Part shown: piece by piece, positions 7,645-15,962 of the stretch
How positions within the stretch are numbered: the stretch's first letter is position 1
Layout: each line of letters begins with the position of its first letter
Translations under genes and position numbers: made by a program
Notes under the pieces: generated by a model
Told to the model about the DNA's origin: nothing
Seen by the model: the letters and a program-made list of their open reading frames with translations, nothing else
Database searches by the model: none
NCBI GenBank assembly: GCA_965116925.1
Contig: OZ220744.1
Location: 1,792,001 to 1,856,000, forward strand
Origin: Candidatus Poribacteria bacterium
GTDB taxonomy: Bacteria > Poribacteria > WGA-4E > PCPOR2b
Direction of reading: 5' to 3'
Length of the DNA: 64,000 nucleotides

Positions 7645-8043
7645 TTAACGAAGGGAATTCCACGGTGCTTCATCGGCAACATCAACCAACTGATAACCTT
7701 CATCACTAACACATGGGCCCAAGATAGCCAGCAGCTTCGCAGAAGCGGACGAGGTGTTGAACGAAGCGTGTACTACGTCAGCGGGAATGAATATCGAATC
7801 ACCTGAACTCAGCATCTGTTTTTCGTCGCGCAGCCACTGCTCTACAGTCCCCTCAATAACGTAAATAACCTCTTCCTGTTCCGGATGCTTGTGGAAGTTG
7901 TGTCCACCACCGGGCGATAGGCTCACCTCGATGACCACCAGATCCTTTGCACCTGTTGTTTCGGGACGACTCAACCACGCCAAGGCACCCCAATCGAGTT
8001 GTTCACGTTCTGCTTCTGCTGCAGGGATAAATTTTCCACTCAT
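7645..8043 (-). CDS. Cupin domain protein
   Basis: HNFHKHPEQEEVIYVIEG and GDSIFIPADVVH cupin motifs. Confidence 0.9.
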   Translation of the reverse strand: MSGKFIPAAEAEREQLDWGALAWLSRPETTGAKDLVVIEVSLSPGGGHNFHKHPEQEEVIYVIEGTVEQWLRDEKQMLSSGDSIFIPADVVHASFNTSSASAKLLAILGPCVSDEGYQLVDVADEAPWNSLR

Positions 8044-8159
8044 GATTAATTCTCCTTCAAAATTATGTTTACGTATTGCGGATTACGTATTATCCTAATT
8101 ATAGCGTTCTTACCGTATCTGTGTCTATAGTTTAATTGCGAAAAGAAAGGAAGATTGAC

Positions 8160-9856: not shown

Positions 9857-10097
9857 ACTTTTGAAAGTACGATTTCCCCACTGGATGCTCTTTTGTTCAA
9901 TACGACATTGCGTTACAGTACAGGTACTCTATTATTGAACAGACGCAATACACCGATATCTGGGCAAGTGATAATTACCTCCAATTGCAGATGGCTGCGG
10001 GGGCTGTGATCGCTGGGCGTTTTGTGGATATTTGGAAGTGGGAGTAAACTCGTATTGATTTCTCGATTGGGGCGAGGACCGGTTTATGGTAGTGATT

Positions 10098-11786
10098 TCA
10101 GAATAGACCTTTGAATTGCATCTGCTCATTAGCAGGAATATTACGCCACTTGGCGGCAGACCACGGGGAAATGTCCCACAATTTGATGGTTCCATCAATT
10201 GCCCCCGATGCGAGCATATCTCCAGTTGGTGAATATGTTATAGAGCAAATCCAACCTTCATGTTTCTCAAATGTAGCTATCTCCTGTCCGGCTTCAACTG
10301 ACCAAAGTTTGATGACATAGTCATTAGTTCCCCAAGCAATCACATCTCCAATTGGCGAAATAGCTACCTCCCAGCCCAAATCTTGGTATCCGTTAAATGT
10401 AACTATCTCCTGTCCTGTTTTTGTTGACCACAGTTTGACAGTATCATCCTCTGATCGTGACGCAATTATATCTCCAGTTGGCAAAAATGCTACCCACCAG
10501 ATCCAATCTTCGTGTCCATAAAATGTAGCTATTTCCTGCCCTGTCTTAATTGACCATAGTTTTATGGCTCCATCCTGTGCCCCCGATGCAAGCATGTCTC
10601 CAGTTGGTGAATACGTTACGCAGTTAATTCGACTCTCGTGTCCGTAAAATGTAGCTATTTCCTGTCCTGTCTTAATTGACCACAGTTTTATGGCTCCATC
10701 CTCTGCTCCTGATGCAATCATATCCTCAGTTGGAGAAAAAGCCACAGGCCAGACACCGTATCTGTATCCCTCAAATGTAGCTATCTCCTGTCTTGTCTTA
10801 ATTGACCATAGTTTGCCGGTGCCTCCTGCAACCAAAGCAATCGTATCCCCGGTTGGCGAAAAGCCTGTCCACCAGACCCTACCTTTCGGTCTCTCAAATG
10901 TAATTATTTCCCGTTCTGCTTCAATTGACCACAGCCTGACAGTTCCATCATCCGCCCCTGATGCAATCGCATCTCCGACTGGCGAAAAGGCTACTGAATA
11001 CACCCGCTTTCCGTGTCCCTTAAATGTAACTATCTCCTGTCCTGTTTTAGTTGACCACAGTTTGACAGTTCCATCCTCCGCTCCTGATGCAAGCATATCT
11101 CCTGTTGGTGAATATGCTACCGAACTGACCCTAGCTTCATGAGAGAAGATAGCGATTGGTCGTTTAGCTACAGCCCGTCGTCTTTGTTCGACCTTCTCTT
11201 TCTGTTTTTCGGTTTCAATCCATCTTTCGTATTCGCTAAGAATTTGTAATGCTACACTACTTGAGCTGCCTTTAAGAAATTCGACAGCTATCTGTTTGAT
11301 AAGTCCATCATCGAAACCATTTTGACTATATAGGAGATATTGAATAAGGGGAAGGAATTGATCAAATGAATCAGGATAAATCTGGAGTTGGACAAACAGT
11401 TGATAAACTGCTCTGTTCCTTACGTTCGGATTGTTTAATTTTAACCGAGGTTCAAGATAAGCGGACAATTTACCGTTAAGTCGCTTTAGTTGGTCAGCAG
11501 TTCGCATGTCAGGTTTCTTGGTAGCTGCTTCTATAATTGTCTGAAGGTTGGTGCTTTCTTCTTTCCCCCTCAAAAGAGCATGGCAGTTTCCACAGAGGGT
11601 CATGCCGTTGTCAATCTCGGTAGCAAAATCAGGATATTTTTCTAACGGTTTGATATGGTGTATATGAAGGTTGAGATGTACTCCACATACACGACAGGCA
11701 TCTCCATCGCGCTTTCTGACATCTAGTTTCCACCGTTTATATTCTGGTGATTTGCGGATATCTTGCATAAGGGTTGCCCATTTCAT
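10098..11786 (-). CDS. HNH endonuclease fused to an 8-repeat WD40 beta-propeller
   Basis: RDGDACRVCG...HHIKP...NGMTLCGNCH zinc-binding HNH domain, a helical linker, and about 42-aa WD repeats ending in LW. Confidence 0.9.
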   Translation of the reverse strand: MKWATLMQDIRKSPEYKRWKLDVRKRDGDACRVCGVHLNLHIHHIKPLEKYPDFATEIDNGMTLCGNCHALLRGKEESTNLQTIIEAATKKPDMRTADQLKRLNGKLSAYLEPRLKLNNPNVRNRAVYQLFVQLQIYPDSFDQFLPLIQYLLYSQNGFDDGLIKQIAVEFLKGSSSSVALQILSEYERWIETEKQKEKVEQRRRAVAKRPIAIFSHEARVSSVAYSPTGDMLASGAEDGTVKLWSTKTGQEIVTFKGHGKRVYSVAFSPVGDAIASGADDGTVRLWSIEAEREIITFERPKGRVWWTGFSPTGDTIALVAGGTGKLWSIKTRQEIATFEGYRYGVWPVAFSPTEDMIASGAEDGAIKLWSIKTGQEIATFYGHESRINCVTYSPTGDMLASGAQDGAIKLWSIKTGQEIATFYGHEDWIWWVAFLPTGDIIASRSEDDTVKLWSTKTGQEIVTFNGYQDLGWEVAISPIGDVIAWGTNDYVIKLWSVEAGQEIATFEKHEGWICSITYSPTGDMLASGAIDGTIKLWDISPWSAAKWRNIPANEQMQFKGLF

Positions 11787-11834
11787 AAAGGGATAACAAT
11801 CGTTATCCTAGACTTGCCTCTGATTGTATCATTT

Positions 11835-12620
11835 TCAAATCTGTTTACGTGAATCAATAATCCGCAGCAGATGGCTTGCAAAAATTATCATTTCGGCTGC
11901 TTCTTCTGCGGTGACATTAACATCTCGGTGACTGAAGGGATTTTTATAATAGCCGATTGCCCCGCTAAACAAGGCCGATACAGCTCGCCTTTCTGCTTCC
12001 GGTTGATCAGGATCGGTTAAATTACCATTTTCAACATGAAATGCTTTACGCATTAAATCAGTCCCATAATCCGTCTCTGCATATTCCCCGGCTTCACGGA
12101 CGGCGATTTCGACCTCTTTGAATCCTTGAAAGACTGCAACATCATAGTCACCTCGCAAGAACAGCGGCCACACCTTTTGAGCAATTATAGAATGAAGTTG
12201 GGGTTGCGGTAAAAGGGCTGCTTTGCGATAGGCTTCTAAGTCCTTGTTCGTCTTAATGCCTTTGCCTCGTCTGGTAACGAAATATGTGGTTACTAGACCT
12301 GCGGACCGTTCACGCGATAAGTTAGTTGGTCTTGGAGCAACAAACCCTTCATGTTCCAACCACTGCCAAGCTTCCTTGAGTGCAAAGAGAATCTCATCGC
12401 CTTGTTTGGGTGGGTATTTTTGACGCATTTCTTGACATTTTTCGCTTGGCATTTCCTCGAATAACCTTGACATGGGATCAGATGATATGACATTCTCTAT
12501 GATTATGTTTTGACTGCCCTCTAAAGATACTAAAAGGTGTCCGGCGAGTTCCTCTAGTTCAGCATCTAATAAAGATTCTGCATCTGGAAATGTTTCAAAT
12601 AGCTTTGGGAATATTTGCAT
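11835..12620 (-). CDS. TIGR02391 (Hypoth_Ymh) family protein
   Basis: AVFQGFKEVEIAVRE...GTDLMRKAF...LFSGAIGYYKNPFSH...ASHLLRIID. Confidence 0.85.
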   Translation of the reverse strand: MQIFPKLFETFPDAESLLDAELEELAGHLLVSLEGSQNIIIENVISSDPMSRLFEEMPSEKCQEMRQKYPPKQGDEILFALKEAWQWLEHEGFVAPRPTNLSRERSAGLVTTYFVTRRGKGIKTNKDLEAYRKAALLPQPQLHSIIAQKVWPLFLRGDYDVAVFQGFKEVEIAVREAGEYAETDYGTDLMRKAFHVENGNLTDPDQPEAERRAVSALFSGAIGYYKNPFSHRDVNVTAEEAAEMIIFASHLLRIIDSRKQI

Positions 12621-12626
12621 AATCTG

Positions 12627-13124
12627 TTACCTTCCTTCACTACCCCTACCATTTTGATACATCCAGCTAAGATTATCTTGAGCTGCAGAGTAACCTTGTT
12701 CAGCAGCTTTTTGATACCACCTGACAGCCTCCACATCGCTTTGGGGGACACCCTTACCATTTTGATACATCCAGCCGAGATTGTCTTGGGCTTTGGCGAG
12801 ATTGCCGTCTTGTGCAGCTTTACGATACCACTTGACCGCTTTCACATCGTCTTGCGTAACACCCCTACCATTTTGATACATCCAGCCGAGGTTATCTTGG
12901 GCTATGGCGTAATCTTGTTCGGCAGCTTTACGATACCACTTAATTGCCTCTTCATCATCTTGTGGGACACCCCTGCCATTTTGATACATCCAACCCAAGT
13001 CATTTTGGGCTGCCGGATCTCCACCTTCGGCAAGTTCTTGCAATTGCTTTAATGTTTCTGTTTCCGGTGTTTGTTTATCGGCTTTAAGCTGTGGATGTGT
13101 TGATGATGTGGGGTCATCTGGCAT
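12627..13124 (-). CDS. Sel1-repeat protein
   Basis: Four AQxxLGWMYQNGxG repeats, the last incomplete. Confidence 0.9.
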   Translation of the reverse strand: MPDDPTSSTHPQLKADKQTPETETLKQLQELAEGGDPAAQNDLGWMYQNGRGVPQDDEEAIKWYRKAAEQDYAIAQDNLGWMYQNGRGVTQDDVKAVKWYRKAAQDGNLAKAQDNLGWMYQNGKGVPQSDVEAVRWYQKAAEQGYSAAQDNLSWMYQNGRGSEGR

Positions 13125-13151: not shown

Positions 13152-13928
13152 TTACTCTTGACCAATCATGCCTTCCAAAGGACTCGACGCTGTCGCGTAG
13201 AGTTTTCTCGGAATCCGTCCCGCCAGAAATGCTGCCCTGCCTGCCTCGACCGCCTTTCGCATGGCGGTTGCCATCAGTACCGGTTGACGCGCTTTGGCAA
13301 CCGCGGTGCTGAGGAGGACGCCGTCGCAGCCGAGTTCCATCGCGATTGCTGCATCGGAGGCGGTTCCGACTCCCGCATCGACAATCACGGGGACGCTGAC
13401 GATGTCGCGGATGATTTGTATATTGTACGGATTGCGGATACCCATGCCTGAACCGATCGGTGCCCCCAACGGCATGACTGTGGCGCACCCGATGTCTTCC
13501 AACTTCTTGCACGTAATCGGATCATCGTTGCAGTAGGGCAGCACGGTGAACCCATCTTTGACAAGCGTCGCTGCGGCGGATAACAACTGTTCAACATCGG
13601 GAAATAGGGTCTGGTCGTCGCCGATAACTTCCAACTTGATGAGTGAGGTTTCGAGTGCCTCACGTGCGAGTTGCGCTGTCAACACGGCATCCTTGGCTGT
13701 GAAACAGCCGGAGGTATTTGGTAAAATTGTATATCCCTTCTCGCGGAGGAGGTTGAACAGATTTTCCCCTGAAGCGTCGCTGAGTTTCACCCGGCGCATG
13801 GCGACGGTAGCGATTTCTGCACCGCTCGCTTCAAGTGACCGCATCATCAGGTCGAAATTGGGGTAACCGGCTGTGCCGATTAGCAGTCGTGATTGATAAA
13901 CGGTATCACCAATTTTTAGTCCTTCCAT
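13152..13928 (-). CDS. thiG: Thiazole synthase
   Basis: [37 protein letters not shown] and ATASSP motifs. Confidence 0.98.
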
Positions 13929-13979: not shown

Positions 13980-15098
13980 TCAGGTAGTATCAGCCGGTTC
14001 TTCATAGTTAAACTCGACTTTACTTTGTTTAATTACCTCATCGAGAATACCTTGTAAGTAACCTTCCTGCACTGCTTCATTAAACCTGTTTTTCAGAACA
14101 GGAAGATTGATAATTTCTTCAACACAGTTCATGTATTTCCTAACTATAGCCGTTATGAGGTATTGTTTCTCTGCTCCGGCCTGAAGTCTTTGTCTGAGAA
14201 CACTAACAGATTCTTCGGACTTGATAACGAAGGATATAGGATACCGTTCGATTTTATCGATATCCAAGAAGTATTTTCTTACGTCTAGGGTTTCTGTCAC
14301 CTGAAAGAATCTGCCCAAGGGACGCATAACAAAGTCTATACCGCCATCATTGGCATTGGTGCGACCAGTTTTGTAGAGTTTGAGGTTTTCTTCCTCGACG
14401 CTCTCCAGATTGAAACCGAAATAAATGGTTTGATTGCTGTAGTAATATTTTAGGATGGCGTAACTGACAATTTCAAAGATACGCGCGTCCACGTTTGGTC
14501 CGAGGAGGCTTATAATAAATACTTCTACATTTTCTGTGCTTTCTTCATTAATGCTTTTCAAACGTTCGCATGTTTGAATAAACGCCTCAAATGCACTCCG
14601 CTTCGTCTCTATATAGCGATCCACAATATTGATAATAGAGTTTGCGATATTGTAGGAATCGCCTATAGCGGAAATCTTTAGAAGATTTTCGTTGATCCAA
14701 TAACGCTTTGTTTCAACATCGCGTAAAATTGGAATATACTCGGTTTGTGGAAAATACTTCCGAAAATCGCTGTTCATGCGGTGGTTAAGTGCATGATTTT
14801 GTAGCTTGTTACCAAAAGGCAATTCTCTTTGACGTTTGAATAAGTCTGTAAATGCCGCCCCTCGATAATTTGAGTAGCCACTGTGTTGATCGAATCCGTG
14901 GTTGAGATAATCTTCAATCAGCACATAGAGCGCGTAAAGATTGGCAAAGCTACCTCTTGCTTTTGACCCACGCGTTGCAGATATGGTTTTGATGTTTAGA
15001 TATTGCAAAAGCTCACTTTTTTCAAAAATATCTTCTGCTGCTTCACCAAAATCAGAGCGTAAAACAGCTTGAATTTGCTGCGTAAATTCGTGTTCCAT
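13980..15098 (-). CDS. Putative type II restriction endonuclease
   Basis: Directly abuts the MTase gene. RIFE...NANDGGIDF...FFQVT resembles a PD-(D/E)xK core. Visibly AT-rich. Confidence 0.7.
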   Translation of the reverse strand: MEHEFTQQIQAVLRSDFGEAAEDIFEKSELLQYLNIKTISATRGSKARGSFANLYALYVLIEDYLNHGFDQHSGYSNYRGAAFTDLFKRQRELPFGNKLQNHALNHRMNSDFRKYFPQTEYIPILRDVETKRYWINENLLKISAIGDSYNIANSIINIVDRYIETKRSAFEAFIQTCERLKSINEESTENVEVFIISLLGPNVDARIFEIVSYAILKYYYSNQTIYFGFNLESVEEENLKLYKTGRTNANDGGIDFVMRPLGRFFQVTETLDVRKYFLDIDKIERYPISFVIKSEESVSVLRQRLQAGAEKQYLITAIVRKYMNCVEEIINLPVLKNRFNEAVQEGYLQGILDEVIKQSKVEFNYEEPADTT

Positions 15099-15962
15099 CT
15101 AGTTTCCCTCGAATAATTTGAGGGTCTGTTGAGTTGGGGGCACTTGTTCCTCATAGGAGCGAGGTTCTCGTTTCAATTCTTCCCCTCTATAATGTGTCAT
15201 TATTTGAAGCCTTCTCAGTCCAATTTTAACGTAATCTTCCTCTATCTCTATCCCAATTGATTGACGCCCTAATTTCTTCGCAACGAAACATGTAGTGAAT
15301 GTACCAGCGAAAGGGTCCAGAACAAGATCGCCGGGGTTTGAACTTGCGCGAACAATTCGCTCAAGCAGAGCAACAGGTTTCTGAGTCGGATGTTGTTCGT
15401 ACTCATCCATTCTGTAGCGGACACGCGGAAATTCCCAAACATTGCCCGGCACTTTTCTTGAGCTATATTGTGTAGGGACCGGCTTTCGGTAATCGATTAA
15501 TTTGCGCTTTGCACCTGTCTTTGCCTCAACAAGGATGTCATCTGCGTTGAAAGTGTATTGCTGCTTATCTTTTACACAAAAAAGGATGGGTTCATACAGG
15601 GAACCGTAATATTTTTTCGCTTGGACCCCCGAACTATCATAAGACCAAACAATGCGAGAAAGAATGCGGATTTTACCCCGAAGGTAGATGTCAAAGTAGG
15701 GCATATTCTGGGTGGCAGCCATGAGATAGAAACTACCTCTGTCTTTCAGTTTACGGAGGCAAAGGTCAATCCACTTGTAGCACCATTCGAGATACACTTT
15801 TTCAGAAGTCCACTTGTCTTTTCTACCGTTGAAGTTTTTACCGATGTTGTAGGGAGGATCTGCAAAAATTAAGTCTACTGAGCTATCAGGAATTTTGCTC
15901 GACAAAGCATCAAGTGCATCTCCCCAAATTATCAGATGATTCCCTTTTTCCAAGGCTTCCAT
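15099..15962 (-). CDS. yhdJ: Beta-class adenine DNA methyltransferase, YhdJ-like
   Basis: DPPY motif before HPTQKP and DPFAGTFTT. Segments SRIVWSYDSSGVQAK and LVEAKTG match E. coli YhdJ as I recall it. Confidence 0.9.
   Translation of the reverse strand: MEALEKGNHLIIWGDALDALSSKIPDSSVDLIFADPPYNIGKNFNGRKDKWTSEKVYLEWCYKWIDLCLRKLKDRGSFYLMAATQNMPYFDIYLRGKIRILSRIVWSYDSSGVQAKKYYGSLYEPILFCVKDKQQYTFNADDILVEAKTGAKRKLIDYRKPVPTQYSSRKVPGNVWEFPRVRYRMDEYEQHPTQKPVALLERIVRASSNPGDLVLDPFAGTFTTCFVAKKLGRQSIGIEIEEDYVKIGLRRLQIMTHYRGEELKREPRSYEEQVPPTQQTLKLFEGN

What the first reader, a model, noticed from the sequence alone, without database searches (positions are those of the whole stretch)
10098..11786. HNH nuclease-WD40 protein with conserved scaffold and variable patch: candidate immune receptor-effector
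Seen: eight roughly 126-bp WD repeats keep a near-identical DNA scaffold (compare 10519-10600 with 10645-10726). One segment varies strongly: EARVSS, GKRVYS, KGRVWW, RYGVWP, ESRINC, EDWIWW, QDLGWE, EGWICS. Known: fungal HET-E-type NLRs have internally conserved WD repeats with a diversified top face for recognition. Inference: the propeller senses a phage or host protein and controls the N-terminal HNH nuclease. No NTPase domain is present.
Basis: partly seen in the sequence, partly recalled or inferred. Interest (0 to 1): 0.75.

Follow-up and report, generated by a model that had tools for sequence, protein, structure and literature searches.

The report
HNH nuclease with swappable repeat sensor
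This gene joins a predicted DNA-cutting domain to a ring-shaped binding domain that related bacteria replace with other binding domains at the same chromosomal spot, so it is likely a modular anti-virus sensor-nuclease, but its "variable patch" is nearly the same in relatives rather than rapidly diversifying.

Summary
The ORF is real: an HNH nuclease, a helical domain and an 8-bladed WD40 propeller, with no NTPase. The patch is the most variable stretch between blades, but this is ordinary: 32 of 32 WD40 ORFs in this genome show it, and the repeats average only 68% DNA identity. The HET-E analogy fails. Between orthologues each blade keeps its own patch (35 of 35 patches closest to the same-position blade; dN/dS 0.25 against 0.23 for the scaffold).

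The better finding is the family. The HNH-plus-helical head, found only in this phylum's genomes among those searched (relatives are named Poribacteria), keeps its catalytic residues and is predicted to dimerise. It carries interchangeable tails: Sel1 in 104 of 120 listed relatives, WD40 in 8, TPR in 5. At one chromosomal slot, sister species carry two different propellers, Sel1 arrays, or no gene. Defence-type neighbours occur at 8 of 18 sites against 1 of 20 control windows.

Best reading: an NTPase-free sensor-nuclease that changes specificity by swapping whole sensor domains. No activity, ligand or protection was tested. This scan's earlier notes held no look-alike.

The parts
10098..11786 (-). 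HNH-helical-WD40 gene, 562 codons from the first ATG; probable start at 11768 (556 aa). Residue numbers below count from 11786.
   Evidence: relatives start at the second Met
11580..11696 (-). HNH nuclease domain with Zn-binding cysteines (C31, C34, C65, C68) and the H43/H44, N60, H69 motif
   Evidence: Pfam PF01844; C31, C34, H44, N60, C65, H69 invariant in 120 aligned sequences; profile hits IscB, maturase, McrA and a phage-type HNH in PDB
11262..11576 (-). Helical HEAT/ARM-like domain (about residues 71-175); predicted homodimer interface
   Evidence: model pLDDT 81.5; only unspecific HEAT/ARM fold matches, best Z 9.2; dimer score 0.60, best control 0.00
11166..11258 (-). Long helix (residues 177-207) joining head and propeller; the region where tails are exchanged
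   Evidence: identity to Sel1-tailed relatives ends and identity to G044's propeller begins here
10173..11156 (-). Eight-bladed WD40 propeller ('type A')
   Evidence: model matches the 8-bladed Tako8, rmsd 2.3-2.4 A, TM(target) 0.90-0.91
10242..11138 (-). The eight blade-specific patches: 11138-11121, 11012-10995, 10886-10869, 10763-10746, 10637-10620, 10511-10494, 10385-10368, 10259-10242; rich in Arg and Trp
11835..12620 (-). Ymh / TIGR02391 gene (HEPN-family predicted RNase, Kx4H variant of the motif), 48 bp upstream; frequent but not obligatory partner
   Evidence: Ymh is listed as a HEPN family in PMC3710099 (passages); directly upstream at 3 of 18 sites; absent from the slot in G039, G045, G050, G051
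12627..13124 (-). Small Sel1-repeat gene; slot resident that also occurs where the HNH gene is absent
13152..13928 (-). thiG, conserved anchor of the variable slot
13980..15962 (-). Type II restriction enzyme (13980-15098) and methyltransferase (15099-15962); the restriction gene is present in some sister genomes and absent in others
   Evidence: PADLOC E 3e-156 and 6e-136
9987..10046 (+). 60-bp copy of the 3' end of leuC; marks the far edge of the slot (att-like; inferred)
   Evidence: 92% identical to G000:C1:2232567-2232508; sister genomes have the whole leuC here

Best explanation
The gene encodes an HNH domain with intact catalytic residues, a helical domain predicted to dimerise and an eight-bladed WD40 propeller, and it likely works as a one-gene, NTPase-free sensor-nuclease against phage or other invading DNA. 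Shown: the domain order, the conserved catalytic residues, purifying selection on both head and patch, exchange of whole tails (two WD40 types, Sel1, TPR) on the same head, patchy presence at a fixed slot, and enrichment of defence-type neighbours. Predicted by a model: a head-to-head dimer, which would pair two single-strand-cutting HNH sites. Inferred: the protein is cytoplasmic; the propeller's Arg/Trp-rich top face binds one fixed asymmetric ligand, most likely a phage protein or a guarded host protein; binding is relayed through the long helix and unmasks or aligns the HNH pair, which would cut DNA and abort infection. New specificities would arise by swapping the tail, not by mutating the patch.
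For: Head conserved and under purifying selection whatever the tail: catalytic residues invariant in 120 sequences; both motifs in 119 of 121 proteins; dN/dS 0.04 over residues 1-94 against two Sel1-tailed genes. Tails among the 120 listed hits: Sel1 104, WD40 8, TPR without Sel1 5, DUF7669 1, none annotated 2 (counted by hand from its Pfam column). At the thiG slot 10 genomes of the genus carry the gene: type A propeller (G000, G044), a second 7-blade propeller (G052), Sel1 arrays (G039, G045, G047, G048, G050, G051) or a mainly coiled-coil tail (G049). It is absent in 5 of 5 further genomes, chosen because one search showed no hit there. Modules have different histories: G044 shares the propeller (dS 0.36) but not the helical domain; G039 has HNH dS 0.29 against 0.91-1.05 for thiG and thiO. 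Defence-type Pfam family within two genes: 8 of 18 sites, or 11 of 18 counting Ymh, against 1 of 20 evenly spaced control windows (Fisher p 0.007 and 0.0003). Dimer model: score 0.60, best of 3 controls 0.00; the mark was reached by 20 of 30 solved homodimers and 1 of 23 single chains; runs agree in at least 87% of contacts, pLDDT at least 84. The interface includes nearly invariant residues 77, 79, 80, 135, 137, 138. Effector-first, repeat-last order matches bacterial NLR-related proteins (bioRxiv 2022.07.19.500537, passages).
Against: No activity, ligand, expression or protection data. Seven of 18 sites have no defence-type or Ymh neighbour by Pfam, and two of these sites are shared by several genomes. 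The neighbour test is weak by design: the family list was fixed after seeing the hits, controls come from one genome, sites are not fully independent, and any accessory gene tends to sit in such slots. No PADLOC system model covers the protein; its hits are a WD40 stretch and weak HNH matches. There is no known switch domain, so how an ungated nuclease is kept quiet is unexplained. Homologues were collected by similarity to the head, which favours conserved heads. dS values on 60-90 codons are noisy.
Confidence: 0.55

Rival explanations
1. A non-immune accessory nuclease: a phage-derived, homing-type HNH that captured repeats from this lineage's large repeat-protein pool and is either selfish or is recruited by a host partner for DNA processing or repair.
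For: The HNH part is up to 49% identical over about 62 residues to free-standing phage HNH genes (24 records, none covering the helical domain). One site lies between uvrA and a UvrD-type helicase. The genome has 32 WD40 ORFs to draw on. One copy is split by inserted ORFs and others are truncated.
Against: No DNA-binding module of homing enzymes in the head. Tail and patch are under purifying selection. A repair role fits poorly with presence in only 35 of 176 genomes and with interchangeable tails.
Confidence: 0.2
2. A modification-dependent (McrA-like, type IV) restriction enzyme in which the propeller reads modified or sugar-decorated DNA directly.
For: The HNH profile matches McrA weakly (E 0.009). 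Top-face positions are rich in Arg and Trp. A type II restriction-modification pair is 2.2 kb away. A predicted dimer suits double-strand cutting.
Against: The commonest tails are Sel1 and TPR, which are protein-binding folds (own knowledge). No known base-reader domain was found.
Confidence: 0.13
3. One reading: a HET-E-like receptor whose blades are homogenised and reshuffled while top-face residues diversify under positive selection, giving many alleles.
For: The patch is at the HET-E-like position. Short scaffold tracts are more alike between blades of one gene (0.93-0.98) than between orthologues (0.76-0.90), which suggests some gene conversion (no formal test). Column 28, a second top-face position, is variable between orthologues (identity 0.39).
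Against: Patch dN/dS 0.25; 9 of 48 patch codons against 46 of 280 scaffold codons change residue (p 0.68). 35 of 35 patches and 33 of 35 whole blades are closest to the same-position orthologue. Eight blades in the same order in the three complete type A proteins. Contigs of a run from another study show no differences across the propeller. No NACHT domain.
Confidence: 0.07
4. An exported toxin or host-directed eukaryote-like protein of a sponge symbiont.
For: WD40 and Sel1 proteins of Poribacteria are discussed as eukaryote-like, often surface-located proteins (PMC3909097, passages).
Against: The protein starts directly with the charged HNH head, whereas most other WD40 ORFs of the genome begin with a hydrophobic leader (judged by eye, no predictor run). 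The propeller is followed by only about 24 residues, too few for a sorting domain. No constant downstream immunity gene was seen.
Confidence: 0.05

Closest known systems
Fungal HNWD NLRs HET-D/HET-E (PMC1805685 and PMC12222747; passages seen)
   Same: N-terminal effector, C-terminal WD40 propeller; variable residues in the d-a loop and b-c turn.
   Different: No NACHT domain; blades only 55-78% identical; blades group by position; patch under purifying selection; constant 8 blades in the complete copies.
Bacterial NLR-related NACHT/STAND defence proteins (bioRxiv 2022.07.19.500537; passages seen)
   Same: Effector first, repeat sensor last; HNH is among their listed effectors; modular exchange between relatives.
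   Different: No NTPase switch; a small helical domain predicted to dimerise sits in its place. In that paper effectors vary on related NACHT-sensor cores; here the effector is constant and the sensor varies.
HNH endonucleases of the McrA / IscB / phage HNH type (PF01844; PDB 6ghc, 9k2z, 5h0m)
   Same: Zn-binding HNH motif with all catalytic positions.
   Different: Fused to a lineage-specific helical domain and repeat tails. The full head scores below E 1e-30 in only 40 of 1.84 billion cluster representatives, against thousands for HNH alone.
Repetitive prokaryotic WD40 (WRAP) propellers linked to innate immunity (PMC9218822; passages seen)
   Same: Bacterial propeller with visibly related blades, attached to an effector-type domain.
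   Different: Blades here are older and differentiated; the partner is HNH, not TIR or caspase.
Poribacterial eukaryote-like WD40 proteins (PMC3909097; passages seen)
   Same: Same lineage (by the names of two homologues) and same repeat type.
   Different: Those often carry a sorting domain and sit at the surface; this one has a nuclease head and no leader. 'HNH' does not occur in that paper's main text; its supplementary tables were not read.

Membership tests
HET-E-type HNWD NLR | Central NACHT NTPase | tested here: not met
   Residues 1-208 give only HNH; the rest is propeller
HET-E-type HNWD NLR | Concerted evolution: repeats group by gene, not by position | tested here: not met
   33 of 35 blades nearest to the same-position orthologue, 1 tie, 1 other; only short scaffold tracts look converted
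HET-E-type HNWD NLR | Positive selection on top-face codons | tested here: not met
   Patch dN/dS 0.25 on 48 codons in one orthologue pair; 7 of 31 HET-E-equivalent positions against 48 of 297 others change, p 0.45. Column 28 alone is unresolved (7 codons).
HET-E-type HNWD NLR | Many alleles differing in repeat number and order within a species | tested here: inconclusive
   No differences in X2 contigs over 9923-11567 or in the short X3 and X5 pieces, but these are few samples and contigs hide rare variants; P0002 has one substitution and a truncated end
HET-E-type HNWD NLR | Variable residues on the propeller top face | tested here: met
Bacterial NLR-related / STAND defence proteins | STAND NTPase between effector and sensor | tested here: not met
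Bacterial NLR-related / STAND defence proteins | N-terminal effector and C-terminal repeat sensor | tested here: met
Bacterial NLR-related / STAND defence proteins | Protection against phage | not testable with these tools
   needs phage challenge
HNH endonuclease (PF01844) | HH...N...H motif with Zn cysteines, above Pfam cut-off | tested here: met
   33 bits against cut-off 21.4; conservation
HNH endonuclease (PF01844) | DNase activity | not testable with these tools
   needs an assay
Type IV (McrA-like) restriction enzyme | Domain that reads modified DNA | tested here: inconclusive
   No known reader found by Pfam or fold search; the propeller's ligand is unknown
Secreted Poribacterial WD40 proteins | N-terminal leader and C-terminal sorting domain | tested here: not met
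   Sequence inspection; no signal-peptide predictor was available

The most novel reading that the evidence does not exclude
An undescribed family of NTPase-free bacterial immune receptors: a constant dimeric HNH head that takes plug-in WD40, Sel1 or TPR sensors and is switched directly by ligand binding. Sister species would build a recognition repertoire by swapping whole sensors at fixed chromosomal slots, while each sensor's binding face stays fixed.
Probability: 0.35. Interest if true: 0.75.

Novelty: new variant of a known kind. Interest (0 to 1): 0.52.

Why it matters
Known repeat-sensor immune proteins use an NTPase between sensor and effector. A nuclease head that accepts folds as different as a beta-propeller and an alpha-solenoid without one would show a simpler way to couple sensing to killing, and nature has already supplied the tail-swap series needed to test it. 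It would also give some of the sponge-symbiont 'eukaryote-like' repeats a cytoplasmic anti-phage role instead of a host-interaction role. The negative result matters too: a conserved scaffold with a variable top-face patch is the default for WD40 repeats and is not by itself a sign of immune diversification.

Tried and rejected
HET-E-like hypervariability: rejected. 'Near-identical scaffold' as a special feature: rejected by the genome-wide control. Frameshift or misassembly artefact: rejected; the ORF is intact, is matched without differences by contigs of another study, and has full-length orthologues. Two metagenome scans for more type A propeller DNA found nothing or only generic WD40 at 48% identity or less, so dN/dS rests on one pair. 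No RNA holder was listed, which says nothing about expression. Foldseek gave no significant match for the head; the wide search gave only common helical folds and barely tested the HNH part. The protein atlas returned no result. The promoter/terminator scan was at chance level (9 against 6.9 and 5 against 4.5). NCBIfam has no model for the head. Ymh as an obligatory partner: rejected, it is absent in four genomes that have the HNH gene at the slot. Literature searches listed no paper describing an HNH-WD40 or HNH-Sel1 family in Poribacteria; I saw listings only for most hits, the library lacks most subscription papers, and no supplements were read, so a mention in a supplementary table cannot be excluded.

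Full report
1. The observation. The window carries an intact minus-strand ORF at 11786..10098. Pfam finds HNH at residues 31-69 and WD40 behind it. Eight repeats are spaced 41-42 residues apart. A single-sequence AlphaFold model (mean pLDDT 69, head unreliable, propeller mostly 80-90) matches the eight-bladed Tako8 with rmsd 2.3-2.4 A. The quoted six-residue segments occupy blade columns 8-13, the end of the d-a loop and start of strand a, and are the least conserved 6-column window of 37. The cited DNA pair is 89% identical, but all 28 blade pairs span 55-78%, so 'near-identical' overstates it.

2. Is the patch special? No. With a profile built from these blades I collected 32 WD40 ORFs with at least four blades from the genome. 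In 32 of 32 the patch is more variable than the scaffold, and this gene ranks 22nd for scaffold identity; its patch identity (0.20) is among the lowest.

3. Does the patch diversify between relatives? No. Four orthologous type A propellers were available (P0003, P0013, P0020 as proteins, the first two incomplete; G044 with DNA). P0002, from the window's own cluster, was left out of the counts. Same-blade identity is 0.72-0.81 in the patch and 0.79-0.87 in the scaffold. All 35 patches, and 33 of 35 whole blades, are closest to the same-position blade of another orthologue. For G000 against G044, dN/dS is 0.25 in the patch and 0.23 in the scaffold; residue changes are 9 of 48 and 46 of 280 (p 0.68). 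Contigs of run X2, from a different study than the top holder X1, cover 9923-11567 with no differences; run X4 has one contig collinear over the whole gene with 233 differences. Two results lean the other way. Some 14-codon scaffold tracts are more alike between blades of one gene (0.93-0.98) than between orthologues (0.76-0.90), suggesting local gene conversion that spares the patch (not formally tested). Column 28 is only 0.39 identical between orthologues. HET-E repeats, by contrast, exchange units and carry four positively selected codons (PMC1805685, passages), with alleles that differ in repeat number and order (PMC12222747, passages). Mapping their codons 7, 9, 25, 27 to my columns 10, 12, 28, 30 is my inference. 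Rapid divergence between repeats followed by fixation is reported as universal (PMC5120217, abstract and section 10). The patch is therefore best read as a fixed, asymmetric binding face.

4. The family. Searching with residues 1-208 gave 134 relatives of 308-982 aa, 120 listed; two are named Candidatus Poribacteria. Their tails are Sel1 (104), WD40 (8), TPR without Sel1 (5), DUF7669 (1) or unannotated (2). The WD40 members include several unrelated propellers. The head occurs in 35 of 176 genomes of the phylum and scores below E 1e-30 in 40 of 1.84 billion cluster representatives; some shorter HNH-TPR proteins follow at weaker scores. C31, C34, H44, N60, C65 and H69 are invariant in 120 aligned sequences. 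The genome has one paralogue, with a Sel1 tail, behind a toxin-antitoxin-type pair. With that alignment the head folds at pLDDT 81.5 into HNH plus a HEAT/ARM-like helical domain and a long helix. Two copies are predicted to dimerise: score 0.60, best of 3 controls 0.00, a mark reached by 20 of 30 solved homodimers and 1 of 23 single chains; runs agree in at least 87% of contacts, pLDDT at least 84. This supports binding but does not show it.

5. The slot. In the genus the gene lies behind thiG, facing leuC. Ten genomes carry it there with a type A propeller (G000, G044), a different seven-blade propeller (G052), Sel1 arrays (G039, G045, G047, G048, G050, G051; in G047 split by inserted ORFs) or a mainly coiled-coil tail (G049) (G047 and G051 tails judged by inspection and BLAST). 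Five more genomes, picked because one search showed no hit there, have thiG and leuC with no HNH gene. Five fragmented genomes of the genus were not examined. The gene is a mosaic: its first 94 codons are 93-98% identical in DNA to Sel1-tailed G047 and G048 (dN/dS 0.04), while its propeller is 78-93% identical to G044, whose linker is unrelated. G039's HNH (dS 0.29) is much closer than its thiG and thiO (0.91, 1.05). In G000 itself only a 60-bp copy of leuC's 3' end remains at 9987-10046, the real leuC lying 430 kb away.

6. Neighbours. Directly upstream is Ymh, a HEPN family associated with restriction-modification operons (PMC3710099, passages); a type II restriction-modification pair follows beyond thiG. 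I grouped 41 fetched family loci plus the window into 18 sites by flanking genes and scanned two genes on each side of one representative per site (71 genes), and of the central gene of 20 evenly spaced windows of G000 (80 genes). Pfam found restriction-modification, toxin-antitoxin, FRG, DUF4238 or DUF4268 families at 8 of 18 sites (11 with Ymh) and defence-type families in 1 of 20 controls. PADLOC on the 71 site neighbours agreed for six of the eight and added a methyltransferase fragment; it also hit housekeeping UvrA and UvrD and an IS-type protein, which I did not count, and it was not run on the controls. The limits of this test are given in the Against line.

7. Mechanism. Shown: architecture, conserved catalytic residues, purifying selection, tail exchange, patchy occupancy, neighbour enrichment. 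Predicted: dimer. Inferred: cytoplasmic location; a fixed ligand, probably a phage or guarded host protein, binds the propeller top face; the long helix relays this to the paired HNH sites; DNA cutting aborts infection. I put this at 0.55, a selfish or housekeeping accessory nuclease at 0.20, modified-DNA restriction at 0.13, the HET-E-like model at 0.07 and an exported effector at 0.05.

8. Comparison and verdict. It is built like bacterial NLR-related receptors (bioRxiv 2022.07.19.500537, passages) but is not a member, lacking the NTPase, and it is not an HNWD protein. Eight literature searches listed no description of the family, and this scan's notes held no look-alike; supplements were not read.

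Noticed in passing
window 9987-10046; G000:C1:2232508-2232567; L035:7307-7366 and 7986-8045: A 60-bp duplicate of the last codons of leuC. In G048 the two copies flank a roughly 620-bp insert, like attL/attR; in G000 they are 430 kb apart, which suggests a rearrangement at this site. leuC is named from recall of its sequence, not from a family scan.
   Followed up: partly
L177:4484-13530 (G000:C1:2278484-2287533): A defence island with two tandem phosphorothioate-DNA restriction endonucleases (NF045808, above cut-off), a second Ymh gene, a TIR-domain protein and a 1186-aa ATPase weakly like BrxC.
   Followed up: partly
window 13980-15962: The type II methyltransferase beside thiG is kept in most sister genomes while its restriction enzyme is present in only some.
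   Followed up: no
window 11792-11809: A perfect 7-bp inverted repeat with a 4-base spacer just upstream of the gene, partly kept in relatives; possibly an operator or hairpin.
   Followed up: no
window 11835-12620 and 8 homologues: All nine Ymh copies next to the HNH gene have Lys in place of the usual Arg of the HEPN Rx4H motif (motif as recalled).
   Followed up: no
L044:6137-18316: An HNH-Sel1 member lies between a type ISP restriction enzyme and a SIR2-like gene followed by a 1337-aa protein with a P-loop-like start and no Pfam hit.
   Followed up: no
L041:7822-8220: A short HNH-head ORF without a repeat tail lies just downstream of a full HNH-Sel1 gene in G028; possibly a spare cassette for head exchange.
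   Followed up: no
G000:C1:2338915-2341701: A 928-aa WD40 ORF whose start looks like an ECF sigma factor (by eye).
   Followed up: no
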